Made by a program: the position numbers
Shown here: one piece after another, positions 9,001 to 12,000 of the stretch
Position numbering within the stretch: position 1 is the stretch's first letter
Layout: the number at the start of each line of letters is the position of its first letter
Virus record (IMG/VR): IMGVR_UViG_2724679237_000005
Span: 1 to 64,000 of that record
DNA: 64,000 bases
Direction: 5' to 3' (one strand)
DNA from: a virus
Taxonomy: Duplodnaviria > Heunggongvirae > Uroviricota > Caudoviricetes

Positions 9001-12000
9001 CTTTTTTCGTTTCCAATACTCCCACCATAACGCGCCATCATTAGCGCGTTTTTTATTGTCTTTAACTCACTCCAACAACATAAAAATAAGCGCCAAAATA
9101 ACGCCATAGACGCGCTTTTATATTATTGCCAGTACATACCCATTACTTAACACATTAACGCGCTTAAAACGCGTTATATTGCGCTATAGCGCATAGTTAA
9201 TCATTGGCTTTTAGTCTTGCTATGTGATCCGCGTTTAATTGTCGGCGCGGATCGGCATTTTGTTTTGTTCCGTATCCGCTCGCGTATTATGTGCGCGTGA
9301 TTTTTCACATAATCACACCACTTAATCACGTATATGATTACGCTACGAAAGAAATCTGGATGTCTCAGGCGACGAAAGTCAGCATAATTTTCCCCGCTCA
9401 CCTGTCCGACAACCGCTGGTTGGATTCCACCAGCTTCCCGATGTTTTTTCTACATAAAGGCGAATGCAGCCGTTTCCCGAAAAAATCCTGGCCGTTTCCC
9501 GTCGGCTCATGAATACGTTCCTCGCCGTCTCTGAAAATTTCCCTGCGGCAGCTGGTGGCTATAGAGAAAGGGCCGTTTCTGGCCCTCTTCTCAGTTACAC
9601 GCCATCAAGGATGTGGATGCGGTTGCTTGCGTATACATTCAGCATAAAGTTAGCGCAAAACAGTTTCCATGTATCAACGCCAGCGGTATACGTAATGTTT
9701 TTGCATTTAATCGCATTGTTGGCGATCCGCATCCCCTGCGATACTGCTTCATCGTCGGAAAATTTGAACGACGATTGAGTTTTAATCCAGACAGAAATCT
9801 GCGTAGCGAACTCAATCAGCTTGGACTGGCAGAATCGCCCGGAGTGCACCGGAAAGACGAACGTTCCGAATCCAGAATTTACCACATACGCTTTCTCAAA
9901 TACCCGCGAGTAACGACGATTGCCAATGATGTCGCGTGCAATAATGCATTTTTCTTGTGCTGACAGTTCTACCGTCTCATTGTCGCGCCATGCACCAAGT
10001 ACTCGTTTTTCAATGTCAGAGAACGTTACAGCGATATTGCCATGTGCGGGTGCGTTTACAGTAGCGATAAAATTCATGATTAATTCCTTATCGTAAATAA
10101 CAAATTGTTTTCTTGTTGGTGTTAATTATCGTTGTACGAATAAGGCGTCAAAGTGGAAAGTTGCGGTAGCCGGACGGGAACAGGTGGGTTTGTCGGTTGC
10201 CTGGAGGTAAGAGGTTGGTGTTTTTAGCCTGCGGGAAACAGGATGGTCATTTAAGGCCACCAATGCTGATGGCCTTAATAATTATCGACCGATTACGCTA
10301 AGGATCTTTTCCTCAACTGATTTGTTGTTGCGACTAAACTGCCTTGCGTATCTGATGACAGAAGAGGCGTTTTGCTTTCTGACCATCTCGGCTCTTTCCT
10401 TCAGGCGTTTCTTGAAATCGCCCATATTTACCACCAGGCGCAGAAGGTCAGTCTGTTATTGTGAAAGTCGTGGTTCCTGATCAGGTCTTCCACAAGTTTT
10501 TTCAGCTTATCCACGTCATGCCAGTAACCTTCGTCGTACTCCTGACTGCCGAAGAAAAAACCTTCCCGAGTAGGCAAGTACTCTTCGCAATTGCTTTCGT
10601 TTATGTGCATCAAATGAGCTTTCAGAAGGCAAATGTCATTCATCGTTAATTCTAAAAGCTCACAATTTTCGACTTCACCTACGTTGCGCTCCATCCACCC
10701 AACGAGCGCATTGAACTTACGGAAGTAAGCAACCTGCTTTCTGGATGCCTCGTTATTCAGATCGTTTTTAGGCTGTGTCTCGATATAGATATCAAGTCCC
10801 ATGATGGTTTCCTTATTAAGTTGCTTCAGTGAAATCATTTTCACAAATCAGATAAGGCAGAAAACAAATTGTTATCGGGCATAATAAAATGGCGCGGTTT
10901 GCGCGCCATTTAAAGAGGATTAAGCGAATACGCTTTCAGGGATTAAGGTGTCGGCAGGAATGCCAGAGGTAATGCGCAGACCGTACTGGCCAATCCAGGT
11001 GGTGCTGGTGTTCAGGCTGGAGGCGAATACGGTGTTAACCATATTCATCATGGTTTCAAACACCTCTTCATCAACCTGGCGGAAGTAGTTCTCGATTTTC
11101 AGCAGCAGCGGGTCAGTTGCATCGAGAATGGACTGGTATTGAGTCGCGTACTCGCCGCCGGAGGCATCACCTTTACGCACGATCGTACTGGCCTGGACTT
11201 CGGCACCAGTTTCGGTGTTGTACGTAACAACGGTGATTTTTGCCACATTCTTACCTTCGGCAGTTTCAGAGGCATAGTAAACATCAACTGTCAGTTTTTC
11301 GCGTTTAACGGTCATTTCACTCTCCGTAGCGTATTGGTTATTTTTATATTCTATGATCGTAAGTATGTACTTACAATACAAAAAGCCCCGTAAGGATGGC
11401 GGGGCTGTCGTACTGTCGACTAATTACCACTTGCACATTATCAGGCTATTGCCATCACTGATGCTCTCTGAATTTCTTGCTGGGCCACGCGGTTAACTTC
11501 CATCAAAGCCAGTTCGAGCTGATGTTCCGGCCACATTCTTTGAAATGCCACCCAGCCTTTTCCACGCTGGCGACGAACATTCATTACATAACGAGTAAAG
11601 GTGTTTTTATCGAAAGACACCGCTGTTTCACGGAACAGACGAATAGAGGTTCCATTGGCAACGATGTCCAGCAAAGTTAATTGAGCAACCAGTGCAGGCT
11701 TCTCTTTTCTCTTCTGGTCTTTGTCCAGACCAAGAACCAATGATTTTTTCATCACAACTCCGTAAACAACTTGTTTTCTCAATGGCGTAAATAATACCAG
11801 TAAGAAAACGGCTACAAAGCATATTGATCAGGTGCATAAGCGATACGCAGGTTCTTCCCTGCGGCTACAGATTAAGTTAAGCCAGCATTGCTGGCTTTGA
11901 TTGGTTTACGCGAATACCTCAAGAAACTCCTGAACGTCCCAATGCTGGACAAGGTGAAGATAGACCTTAGAAATCACGTCATTCTCGCTATCGCATGTGA

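What the first reader, a model, noticed from the sequence alone, without database searches (positions are those of the whole stretch)
9010..9320. Cluster of at least 5 short GC-rich hairpins in an AT-rich convergent intergenic region
Successive inverted repeats (aacgcgc..gcgcgtt, aagcgcc..cgcgctt, taacgcg..cgcgtta, tgcgcta/tagcgca, gatccgcg..cgcggatc) sit where plus- and minus-strand transcription converge, next to the first CCGTTTCCCGAA array. This is more structure than a bidirectional terminator needs; it may be an origin-like or recombination site, or a set of small RNA stem-loops.
Basis: seen in the sequence. Interest (0 to 1): 0.4.

Follow-up and report, generated by a model that had tools for sequence, protein, structure and literature searches.

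The report
Tandem terminator zone between convergent operons
The hairpin cluster is real, but it is mostly an ordinary double transcription stop signal plus strain-specific palindromes, sitting in a 616-base non-coding spacer of unknown function shared by the SSU5/pHCM2/pMT1 family of phage-plasmids.

Summary
The window is an E. coli SSU5-type phage-plasmid. The cluster is real: 5 of the window's 52 perfect GC-rich hairpins lie in 8984-9253, which also has the window's highest CGCG/GCGC density. It sits in an unannotated 616-bp gap (8979-9594) between convergent genes.

I compared 84 distinct homologous gaps from E. coli, Klebsiella, Salmonella pHCM2/SSU5, Yersinia pestis pMT1, Enterobacter, Cronobacter and others. 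Only two hairpins are universal:
- T2, 9029-9050

Both are canonical rightward intrinsic terminators with invariant stems and T-tracts. Their loops vary freely and even flip to the reverse complement. T1 is tandemly amplified in some lineages. The remaining palindromes are specific to the E. coli lineage or to this window, are often broken without compensation, and lie in a central segment that recombination has shuffled between lineages.

I found no conserved ORF, Rfam match, promoter, DnaA or IHF site, adjacent rep gene, or covariation. The best reading is a duplicated, partly decayed terminator array that insulates convergent transcription.

Still unexplained: the spacer is far more conserved than silent sites of the neighbouring gene, and it also holds operator-like palindromes and GCCGTTTCC stem-loop repeats. 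A regulatory RNA or cis-acting site is not excluded.

The parts
8984..9011 (+). T1: AGCGCCCA-CTA-TGGGCGCT stem-loop plus TTTTTT(CG)TTT. It is the primary intrinsic terminator of the rightward operon and starts 5 nt after the stop codon of ORF 8748-8978. In the E. coli lineage it is also terminator-like on the - strand (tail CGATTTTATTT).
   Evidence: 8 bp stem, 3 nt loop, -15.5 kcal/mol. Present with a T-tail in 83 of 84 distinct homologous gaps. The stem and T-tract are invariant. The loop occurs as ACTAT (73 sequences) or its reverse complement ATAGT (8 sequences). It is tandemly repeated 2-3 times with a 44-47 bp period in some relatives.
9029..9058 (+). T2: AACGCGC(C)-loop-(A)GCGCGTT stem-loop plus TTTTTTAT. 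It is the second rightward intrinsic terminator, 45 bp after T1. Its tail resembles T1's, so it is probably an old duplicate.
   Evidence: -10.2 kcal/mol in the window, -14 to -17.6 in relatives that have a 9-11 bp stem. Present in 81 of 84 gaps, 80 of them with a T-tail. Loops occur as reverse-complement pairs: ATTGTT/AACAAT, ATCATT/AATGAT and ATTGAT/ATCAAT. There is no T-tail on the - strand.
9082..9126 (.). T3: weak hairpin AAGCGC...GCGCTT flanked by AAAAATA and TTTTATATT. It is terminator-like mainly for leftward transcripts, as a back-up to the terminator at 9569-9586.
   Evidence: -6.2 kcal/mol on + and -8.3 on -, neither better than shuffles. A - strand hairpin with a T-tail sits at this position in most lineages (-7.3 to -11.9). 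The + strand register differs between lineages (AAGCGC..GCGCTT versus AAACGCG..CGCGTTT). The stem is broken in about half of the close E. coli relatives.
9156..9176 (.). Inverted repeat TAACGCG-CTTAAAA-CGCGTTA, specific to the E. coli lineage, with no U-tract.
   Evidence: Found at this position in 29 of 84 gaps, all from the E. coli lineage. Single substitutions break it without compensation.
9180..9193 (.). Loopless palindrome TGCGCTATAGCGCA, essentially specific to this window.
   Evidence: Intact in only about 5 of 77 comparable sequences; most close relatives read TGCGCTATAGAGTA.
9226..9269 (+). GATCCGCG-12 nt-CGCGGATC hairpin followed by GGCATTTTGTTTTGTT. It looks like a strong rightward terminator and is specific to the E. 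coli lineage. It contains two GATC sites.
   Evidence: -18.3 kcal/mol, z -3.0. Scored as a terminator. Present in 33 of 84 gaps. The other lineages have unrelated sequence here that folds no better than shuffles. A mosaic junction lies just to its right, at about 9257-9270.
9281..9305 (+). CGCGTATTATGTGCGCG hairpin plus TGATTTTT tail. A weak rightward terminator-like element, specific to the E. coli lineage.
   Evidence: -7.2 kcal/mol. Conserved in 21 of 24 close relatives.
9297..9340 (.). Operator-like half-sites GTGATT / TAATCAC / TAATCAC / (A)TGATTA. In most close relatives 9323-9340 is the perfect palindrome TAATCAC-GTAT-GTGATTA.
   Evidence: (D6, I6, I12). The short block CACATAATCAC is shared with the other lineages. 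No binding protein is known and the function is untested.
9469..9558 (.). GCCGTTTCC(C) repeat units at 9469, 9491 and, in degenerate form, 9534. Each can close into a short GCCG...CGGC stem-loop. Chi sites lie at 9427-9434 (-) and 9551-9558 (+).
   Evidence: This is the most conserved part of the gap after T1/T2. One compensatory G-C to C-G change occurs at the base of the third unit. The same type of unit recurs six times at 12598-12745.
9569..9594 (-). Terminator of the leftward 160-aa gene: GGGCC-AGAAAC-GGCCC plus TTTCTCT on the - strand. The hairpin itself contains a fourth GCCGTTTC unit.
   Evidence: -14 kcal/mol. Found with an A-rich head (equivalent to a - strand T-tail) in 51 of 84 gaps as a perfect stem, and in nearly all by folding.
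8488..8508 (+). A second copy of the T1 hairpin with the loop inverted (AAGCGCC-CATAGTG-GGCGCTT). It lies between the 219-aa gene and the next gene, whose true start is 8526.
   Evidence: It is the only other match to the T1 motif in the window.

Best explanation
The cluster is a transcription-termination zone at the 3' end of the short rightward operon of an SSU5/pHCM2/pMT1-type phage-plasmid. That operon runs from the helicase gene through the FljA-like regulator to the small genes ending at 8978. It faces the end of the leftward gene series that runs on from 9595 through the rest of the window.

Two canonical intrinsic terminators in series, T1 (8984-9011) and T2 (9029-9058), stop rightward RNA polymerase. 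The GC stem forms in the nascent RNA, the U-tract weakens the RNA-DNA hybrid, and the transcript is released. Two in tandem multiply the efficiency. This keeps rightward transcripts from running antisense into the leftward genes and from colliding with polymerases arriving from the other side. Leftward transcripts stop at the hairpin 9569-9594, with a weak back-up at T3 (9082-9126).

The array grew by tandem duplication of a 45-60 bp terminator unit. Copies then diverged or decayed. That history accounts for the high CGCG/GCGC density and for the same-strand excess of GCG(C/T)TTT words. Because CGCG and GCGC are self-complementary, this composition makes further short palindromes easy to form. 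Two of them still look like rightward terminators. They lie in a central segment that is exchanged between lineages by recombination within the conserved flanks.

Shown here: the sequence anatomy, the conservation pattern, the duplications and the mosaicism. Inferred: that termination actually occurs at these sites, and that insulation is the selected function.
For: 1. T1 and T2 have every sequence hallmark of intrinsic terminators and are correctly placed and oriented. They start 5 nt after a stop codon, have GC stems of 7-9 bp and loops of 3-8 nt, and are followed by T6.
2. Among 84 distinct homologous gaps they are the only universal hairpins: 83 of 84 and 81 of 84, with T-tails in 83 and 80. 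They persist even though the last upstream gene differs between lineages.
3. The constraint pattern is the one expected of terminators. Stems and T-tracts are invariant, while loops vary freely and recur as exact reverse complements.
4. Polarity. Of nine terminator-like hits in 8983-9297, six are on the + strand, including four of the five with at least 4 G-C pairs. GCG(C/T)TTT words occur 53 times on + against 25 on - in non-redundant gaps, at recurring offsets of about 30, 78, 144 and 200-214.
5. Duplication. T1 occurs as 2-3 tandem copies with a 44-47 bp period in several relatives, and one variant carries five consecutive rightward terminators. The T1-to-T2 spacing is 45 bp, and their tails are alike (TTTTTTCGTTTC and TTTTTTATTGTC).
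6. The other hairpins are not conserved. They mutate without compensation. In relatives the central region folds no better than shuffles (z about 0 to +1).
7. Alternatives were tested and not supported. No conserved ORF. No Rfam or tRNA hit. No conserved sigma-70 promoter. No conserved DnaA or IHF site.
Against: - The gap is about 470 bp longer than a terminator pair needs.
- For lineage pairs whose flanking gene is saturated at four-fold degenerate sites (mean identity 0.35), the central gap segments keep 0.61-0.64 identity and the repeat segment 0.73. Some constraint, or recent exchange, acts on sequence this model treats as decayed copies.
- The model does not explain the operator-like TAATCAC palindromes, the conserved block GTACATACCCATTAC, or the GCCGTTTCC stem-loop repeats.
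- In LF82 lysogens the last two rightward genes (CYRAN_112 and 113) are at background expression, while the leftward 160-aa gene is about 5-fold above it (supplementary table of PMC9928086). Strong rightward termination would therefore matter only in other conditions, such as lytic growth.
- No 3'-end data exist for this locus.
Confidence: 0.6

Rival explanations
1. The central part of the gap (about 9085-9380) is a regulated non-coding RNA locus. One version is a leftward RNA of 220-300 nt that starts at a weak promoter overlapping the TAATCAC operators (-35 ATCACA, 18 bp, -10 GATTAT, near 9340-9309) or at TTGTCG-17-AATTAT (near 9389), and ends at the leftward T3 hairpin. Another version is a rightward sRNA of about 135 nt running from near 9133 to the U-tailed hairpin 9226-9269. 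In either case the hairpins would be the body of the RNA, and T1/T2 would shield it from convergent transcription.
For: - On the + strand four hairpins carry U-tails. On the - strand only T3 and T1 do, so a leftward transcript could cross the region unhindered.
- Perfect 18-bp operator-like palindromes are present in most E. coli-lineage relatives.
- Weak promoter-like matches (8 of 12) occur at the same columns in 21-23 sequences.
- The region is conserved well above silent sites of the flanking gene.
- The window sequence folds better than shuffles on both strands.
- An FljA-family (PF03614) regulator is encoded in the upstream operon. The RNA-binding activity of Salmonella FljA is from my own knowledge.
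Against: - No Rfam family matches, even at E<=10.
- No promoter passes the stricter scan, and none is conserved across lineages.
- The hairpins are lineage-specific.
- Stem mutations are not compensated and show no strand-specific wobble bias.
- The homologous central region in other lineages folds no better than shuffles.
- A Y. pestis RNA-seq survey listed two pMT1 sRNAs, both at the ymt region and not here.
Confidence: 0.2
2. The gap is a cis-acting DNA site for replication. It could be a lytic origin, or a single-strand initiation or primosome-assembly site. The GCCGTTTCC repeats would act as iterons and the hairpins as extruded or single-stranded structures.
For: - Repeat units are spaced 22 bp apart at 9469 and 9491, with a longer six-unit array at 12598-12745.
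- The flank is mildly AT-rich.
- GC skew changes sign at about 8900-9200.
- Loop flip-flops show that the T1 and T2 arms interact at the DNA level.
- The lytic origin of SSU5-type phages is, to my knowledge, unmapped.
Against: - No conserved DnaA box or IHF site.
- No Rep-like or initiator domain in the neighbours, and no fold match for the 160-aa protein.
- The two repeat clusters are the only ones in 100 kb of a 115-kb relative. Neither is beside the primase, DnaB-like helicase or plasmid-maintenance genes.
- The skew change coincides with the switch in gene orientation, which explains it.
- The repeat units look like short stem-loops with compensatory changes rather than duplex iterons.
- The hairpins themselves are not conserved.
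Confidence: 0.07
3. The palindromes form a dedicated recombination site, either a core site for the element's integrase or resolvase, or a cruciform hotspot that drives module exchange.
For: - The central segment is mosaic among E. coli relatives. Junctions lie at 9061 (immediately after the T2 tail), at about 9180, and at about 9257-9270 (after the 9226-9253 hairpin). The right-hand junction lies between about 9390 and 9470.
- 9156-9176 has a 7-7-7 arm-spacer-arm geometry.
- Two oppositely oriented Chi sites lie in the gap.
- Loop inversions occur in T1 and T2.
Against: - The candidate core palindromes are absent outside one lineage and decay without compensation.
- The integrase and recombinase genes are tens of kilobases away.
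- Junctions at the edges of conserved blocks are what ordinary homologous recombination between diverged relatives produces.
- Chi is about 10-fold enriched across the whole window, not only here.
Confidence: 0.05

Closest known systems
Tandem Rho-independent (intrinsic) terminators at operon ends, such as E. coli rrnB T1-T2, and the intrinsic terminators between convergent genes (from my own knowledge)
   Same: GC-rich stem, short loop and a U-tract immediately 3', placed just after a stop codon. Two or more act in series. Stems and U-tracts are conserved while loops are free. The site is a convergent gene junction. T3, and T1 in the E. coli lineage, also have an A-tract on the other side, as bidirectional terminators do.
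   Different: The copy number varies from 2 to 5 through tandem duplication within one element family. The zone is embedded in a conserved spacer of about 600 bp that holds other unexplained elements. Termination has not been measured.
Iteron-type replication origins of plasmids and phages (P1 oriR, F oriS, lambda ori; from my own knowledge)
   Same: Direct repeats spaced about 22 bp apart lie next to a somewhat AT-richer stretch, inside a phage-plasmid.
   Different: There is no adjacent initiator gene and no conserved DnaA or IHF site. The gap holds only 2 perfect and 2 degenerate repeats. The repeat units can fold as short stem-loops. The hairpin cluster itself is not conserved.
Phage immunity and antisense RNA loci (P1/P7 c4, P22 sar, lambda oop; from my own knowledge)
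   Same: A short structured non-coding region in a temperate phage, bounded by terminators, with operator-like palindromes nearby.
   Different: No match to the Rfam models, no conserved promoter, no covariation, and no known target.
REP/BIME repeated extragenic palindromes at convergent gene ends in enterobacteria (from my own knowledge)
   Same: Clusters of GC-rich palindromes between convergent genes.
   Different: These are not dispersed repeats. The sequence occurs once per element, only on plasmids, in 239 of 5,426 complete E. coli genomes and never on a chromosome. The window holds only one extra copy of T1.

Membership tests
Intrinsic (Rho-independent) terminator: T1 and T2 | GC-rich stem of about 5-14 bp with a 3-8 nt loop and a stable fold | tested here: met
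   T1 has 8 bp and a 3 nt loop, -15.5 kcal/mol, z -4.3. T2 has 7 bp and an 8 nt loop, -10.2 kcal/mol in the window, and 9-11 bp with -14 to -17.6 in relatives.
Intrinsic (Rho-independent) terminator: T1 and T2 | U-tract directly 3' of the stem | tested here: met
   TTTTTT follows both stems. A T-tail is present in 83 of 84 gaps for T1 and 80 of 84 for T2.
Intrinsic (Rho-independent) terminator: T1 and T2 | Located downstream of, and co-oriented with, the last gene of a transcription unit | tested here: met
   T1 starts 5 nt after the stop of ORF 8748-8978 (+). It holds the same position in relatives whose last gene differs.
Intrinsic (Rho-independent) terminator: T1 and T2 | Selection acts on the stem and U-tract but not on the loop sequence | tested here: met
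   Stem and T-tract columns are invariant. Loops vary and occur as reverse-complement pairs.
Intrinsic (Rho-independent) terminator: T1 and T2 | RNA 3' ends map to the U-tract, and read-through drops | not testable with these tools
   No 3'-end or strand-specific coverage data could be accessed. The gene-level table from LF82 gives no intergenic values.
Intrinsic terminator: the other listed hairpins (9088-9117, 9156-9176, 9180-9193, 9226-9253) | Stable stem plus an adjacent U-tract, conserved in relatives | tested here: not met
   9226-9253 has a stem and tail but only in the E. coli lineage. 9156-9176 and 9180-9193 lack a U-tract. 9088-9117 folds no better than shuffles, and its stem is often broken.
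Iteron-type replication origin | Array of at least 3 direct repeats of 17-22 bp in helical phase | tested here: inconclusive
   GCCGTTTCC at 9469 and 9491 (22 bp apart), with degenerate copies at 9534 and 9572. All lie to the right of the hairpin cluster.
Iteron-type replication origin | Adjacent gene for the initiator that binds the repeats | tested here: not met
   [not shown]
Iteron-type replication origin | Conserved DnaA boxes, IHF site and AT-rich unwinding element | tested here: not met
   The one perfect DnaA-box match (9301-9309) is specific to this window. No IHF consensus occurs in any of the 18 sequences tested. GC is 40.8%, only mildly low.
Small regulatory or antisense RNA gene | Own promoter plus terminator defining a discrete transcript | tested here: inconclusive
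   Terminator-like ends exist. Promoter-like matches are weak (8 of 12) and lineage-specific, and none passes the stricter scan.
Small regulatory or antisense RNA gene | Conserved secondary structure supported by compensatory changes, or a match to a curated family | tested here: not met
   The covariation term is about zero. The central region folds no better than shuffles in relatives. Stem changes are uncompensated. No Rfam match.
Small regulatory or antisense RNA gene | Detected as an RNA species | tested here: not met
   The Y. pestis RNA-seq catalogue (PMC3770706, Table S1) lists pMT1 sRNAs only at 98.1 and 105.8 kb, in the ymt region and not at this locus. This covers one host and few conditions.
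REP/BIME-type dispersed palindromes | Many dispersed copies in the host genome | tested here: not met
   No chromosomal places in 5,426 complete E. coli genomes, and a median of one copy per plasmid. The window has only one other T1 copy.
Site-specific recombination core site (dif/cer/lox-like) | Conserved inverted arms around a 6-8 bp spacer, usually near the recombinase gene | tested here: not met
   9156-9176 has the right geometry but is lineage-specific and decays. The integrase and recombinase genes are far away.

The most novel reading that the evidence does not exclude
The whole 616-bp spacer is a single functional non-coding locus of the family, present in E. coli, Klebsiella, Salmonella Typhi pHCM2, Y. 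pestis pMT1 and phage SSU5. It comprises T1/T2, a recombining CGCG-rich centre with operator-like palindromes, and GCCGUUUCC stem-loop repeats that recur 3 kb away. Its product or role would be either an operator-controlled structured RNA or protein-binding RNA, or the unmapped lytic origin. It would take part in the switch between plasmid maintenance and lytic growth. The lineage-specific hairpins would then be allelic versions of one structured element, not decayed terminators.
Probability: 0.2. Interest if true: 0.55.

Novelty: new member of a known kind. Interest (0 to 1): 0.28.

Why it matters
As a tandem terminator zone, this is ordinary biology. It is useful mainly for annotation. It marks the boundary between the two transcription directions of SSU5-type phage-plasmids, and it gives a clear example of terminators multiplying by tandem duplication and of hairpin loops flipping.

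The wider point is that hundreds of sequenced plasmids carry an unannotated, conserved 600-bp non-coding spacer here. These include 4.4% of complete E. coli genomes, Y. pestis pMT1 and S. Typhi pHCM2. The terminators explain only about 80 bp of it. If the remainder turns out to be a regulatory RNA or an origin, it would bear on how this clinically widespread phage-plasmid family controls lysogeny or copy number.

Tried and rejected
- Rfam at gathering threshold on the whole window, and at E<=10 on 8700-9900, returned only sub-threshold noise. The best hit was isrK at 19.9 bits against a threshold of 50, over T1-T2. No tRNA or tmRNA was found.
- The ORF starting at the conserved ATG 9361 is not conserved. 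Across relatives it runs 2 to 79 codons in shifting frames, and no other conserved ORF appears on either strand.
- RNAalifold on the whole gap gave a covariation term near zero. Folding the central segment in 18 relatives gave z about 0 to +1 in most.
- Scans for DnaA boxes, IHF sites and GATC clusters found nothing conserved.
- A sigma-70 promoter scan on 84 sequences found only weak, lineage-specific matches. The built-in scan found none in 8300-10300.
- Self-similarity of the gap against the window found only the second T1 copy. The conserved blocks GTACATACCCATTAC and CACATAATCAC are not repeated elsewhere.
- Pfam and PHROGs on ten flanking proteins gave only one informative hit, the FljA-like PF03614 regulator.
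- Literature searches found nothing that describes this locus. I searched SSU5 origin and lysogeny, pHCM2 transcriptomics, pMT1 sRNAs, and iterons. One 2026 preprint on SSU5-type copy number could not be read.
- The GCCGTTTCC motif clusters are not near replication genes, so I dropped the RepA-iteron idea.
- I looked for strand-specific wobble-compatible substitutions in stems, which would have indicated which strand is the functional RNA. There was no signal.
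Full report
**What the window is.** The 1.8 kb around the finding is 97-98% identical to Escherichia phages CMS-2020a, PhiR41_1 and Cyrano. It is more distantly related to Klebsiella phage-plasmids and to Salmonella phage SSU5. The window is therefore an SSU5/pHCM2/pMT1-type phage-plasmid of E. coli.

In annotated relatives a short rightward block runs from a DEAD-box helicase gene through a 'transcriptional regulator' to several small genes. It converges on the end of a long leftward series that covers nearly all other listed genes. The finding lies in the 616-bp gap 8979-9594. This gap separates the last rightward ORF (8748-8978) from the last leftward ORF (9595-10077). 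Almost no record annotates anything there; a few carry only a 'hypothetical protein'.

**Check of the observation.** All five inverted repeats are present. Four have perfect stems of 7-8 bp. Two further hairpins were missed. The other is 9281-9297.

The clustering is far beyond chance.
- Of 52 perfect GC-rich hairpins in 64 kb, five lie within 270 bp. No other 320-bp stretch holds even three. The Poisson probability is about 8e-6 per 320-bp stretch.
- The same stretch has the window's highest CGCG/GCGC density, about 8-fold above the mean.
- CpG and GpC observed/expected ratios there are about 2.1-2.2.
- 'AT-rich' is an overstatement. The interval is 40.8% GC, and the whole gap equals the window average.

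**Comparative evidence.** The gap is conserved in length (596-681 bp) and is alignable across the whole family. Blastn finds 780 plasmid records from Klebsiella, Escherichia, Enterobacter, Yersinia pestis (pMT1), Salmonella (pHCM2), Citrobacter and Cronobacter. In complete E. coli genomes it occurs in 239 of 5,426, always on plasmids and never on a chromosome.

I assembled 84 distinct gap sequences from plasmid records, IMG/VR contigs and other assemblies. Only two hairpins are universal.
- T1 (8984-9002) occurs in 83 of 84, all with a T-tail.
- T2 (9029-9050) occurs in 81 of 84, 80 of them with a T-tail.

Their stems and T-tracts are invariant columns. Their loops are not constrained. T1 has ACTAT in 73 sequences and the exact reverse complement ATAGT in 8. 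T2 shows three reverse-complement loop pairs. That is the constraint pattern expected of intrinsic terminators. The flips also show that the arms interact at the DNA level.

T1 follows the last rightward gene whatever that gene is. In some lineages T1 is present as two or three tandem copies with a 44-47 bp period. One variant carries five consecutive rightward terminators. In the window, T1 and T2 are 45 bp apart and have similar tails. A further T1 copy with an inverted loop lies between two genes at 8488-8508.

**The other hairpins.**
- 9156-9176 occurs in 29 of 84 sequences and 9226-9253 in 33 of 84. Both are confined to the E. coli lineage.
- The palindrome 9180-9193 is intact in only about 5 of 77 comparable sequences.
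- The 9088-9117 stem is broken in roughly half of the close relatives.
- Substitutions in these stems are not compensated.
- In the other lineages the homologous central sequence is different and folds no better than dinucleotide shuffles.
- On the + strand, 9226-9253 (-18.3 kcal/mol, tail GGCATTTTGTTTTG) and 9281-9297 still score as terminators.
- The word GCG(C/T)TTT is twice as frequent in the rightward orientation as in the leftward one, at recurring offsets.

Together with the observed T1 duplications, this suggests how the CGCG/GCGC-rich sequence arose. The terminator unit was duplicated repeatedly and the copies then diverged. Because CGCG and GCGC are self-complementary, such sequence readily forms new short palindromes.

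**Mosaicism.** Among E. coli relatives whose flanking gene is 97-99% identical to the window, the central part of the gap has been replaced by the version typical of other lineages. The left junctions lie at three places:
- 9061, immediately after the T2 tail;
- about 9180;
- about 9257-9270.

The right junction lies between about 9390 and 9470, depending on the relative. This looks like ordinary homologous exchange anchored in the conserved blocks, not a dedicated site. Chi is about 10-fold over-represented across the whole window. Two oppositely oriented copies lie in the gap.

**What the terminator model does not explain.** For lineage pairs in which four-fold degenerate sites of the adjacent 160-aa gene are saturated (mean identity 0.35), gap segments keep the following identities:
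- 0.79 for T1-T2;
- 0.61-0.64 for the central segments;
- 0.73 for the repeat region.

Some of this may reflect recent exchange, but blocks of strong conservation exist outside T1/T2. The unexplained elements are:
- the block GTACATACCCATTAC (9132-9146);
- operator-like half-sites at 9297-9340, which form a perfect TAATCAC-GTAT-GTGATTA palindrome in most close relatives;
- the GCCGTTTCC units at 9469-9580. These can close into short GCCG...CGGC stem-loops, show one compensatory change, and recur six times at 12598-12745. At that second site CCG/CGG and CCC/GGG alternatives also look compensatory.

**Tests of the alternatives.**
- There is no conserved ORF, no Rfam or tRNA match, and no conserved sigma-70 promoter.
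- There is no conserved DnaA or IHF site and no replication initiator nearby.
- The 160-aa neighbour has a confident model but no structural relative.
- A Y. pestis RNA-seq catalogue reports pMT1 sRNAs only in the ymt region.
- In LF82 lysogens the last two rightward genes are at background expression, and the leftward 160-aa gene is about 5-fold above it. Leftward transcription therefore does reach the gap during lysogeny. Strong rightward termination would matter mainly in other conditions.

**Conclusion.** The conserved core of the cluster is a tandem pair of intrinsic terminators that closes the rightward operon. Copy number varies within the family through duplication. The remaining palindromes are lineage-specific, partly terminator-like and partly accidental, inside a recombining central segment.

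The origin and recombination-site readings are not supported. A regulated non-coding RNA or another cis-acting role for the remaining roughly 500 bp is not excluded, and it is the only part that could be of more than routine interest. Nothing here has been tested experimentally. 3'-end and 5'-end mapping on a lysogen would settle it.

Noticed in passing
window 12598-12745, and 12800-13340: A second, longer array holds six (G)CCGTTTCCC-type units, mostly 22 bp apart. Each can close into a short stem-loop, and CCG/CGG versus CCC/GGG alternatives occur between lineages. It is followed by a strongly T/G-skewed stretch of about 600 bp. All of this lies in about 1.5 kb with no annotated gene in a RefSeq relative. 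In 100 kb of that relative, the only two clusters of the motif are this one and the one in the gap.
   Followed up: partly
window 9427-9434 (-) and 9551-9558 (+); window-wide: Chi (GCTGGTGG) occurs 13 times in the window against 1.3 expected. Two oppositely oriented copies sit in the non-coding gap and are conserved in many relatives.
   Followed up: partly
window 8984-9002 and 9029-9050, compared with 84 relatives: The loops of both terminators occur as exact reverse complements in different relatives (ACTAT/ATAGT; ATTGTT/AACAAT; ATCATT/AATGAT; ATTGAT/ATCAAT). This is recurrent hairpin-loop inversion.
   Followed up: yes
window 7006-7530 (+): The 'transcriptional regulator' of the rightward operon is a full-length member of PF03614 (FljA, repressor of phase-1 flagellin; E 5e-81). 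It has a weak Hfq-like hit in its C-terminal part. It is conserved next to this locus in all relatives examined. Its target in the phage-plasmid is unknown.
   Followed up: no
window 9323-9340 (and 9297-9316): The sequence TAATCACGTATATGATTA is a perfect 18-bp palindrome, TAATCAC-GTAT-GTGATTA, in most close relatives. Further GTGATT and TAATCAC half-sites lie upstream. It looks like an operator for a dimeric DNA-binding protein.
   Followed up: partly
window 8488-8508 and 8480-8728: A copy of the T1 hairpin with an inverted loop lies between the 219-aa gene and the next gene. It is followed directly by a ribosome-binding site (AAAGGAG). The mechanical ORF 8480-8728 therefore most likely starts at the ATG at 8526, as in RefSeq relatives and in the PHROG match to residues 16-82.
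   Followed up: partly
L003 (Y. pestis pMT1) 2393-2851, just upstream of T1: In Y. pestis pMT1 an IS1541 (IS200/IS605 family) copy sits immediately upstream of the T1 hairpin. It takes the place of the small genes found there in other lineages. A second copy lies about 1.8 kb away on the other side of the gap.
   Followed up: no
[not shown]
   Followed up: partly
L017 (JAEWTL010000044.1): A contig labelled 'MAG: Bacillota bacterium' encodes a protein 99% identical to the E. coli phage-plasmid 160-aa protein. This is probably a binning artefact or contamination in that metagenome-assembled genome.
   Followed up: no
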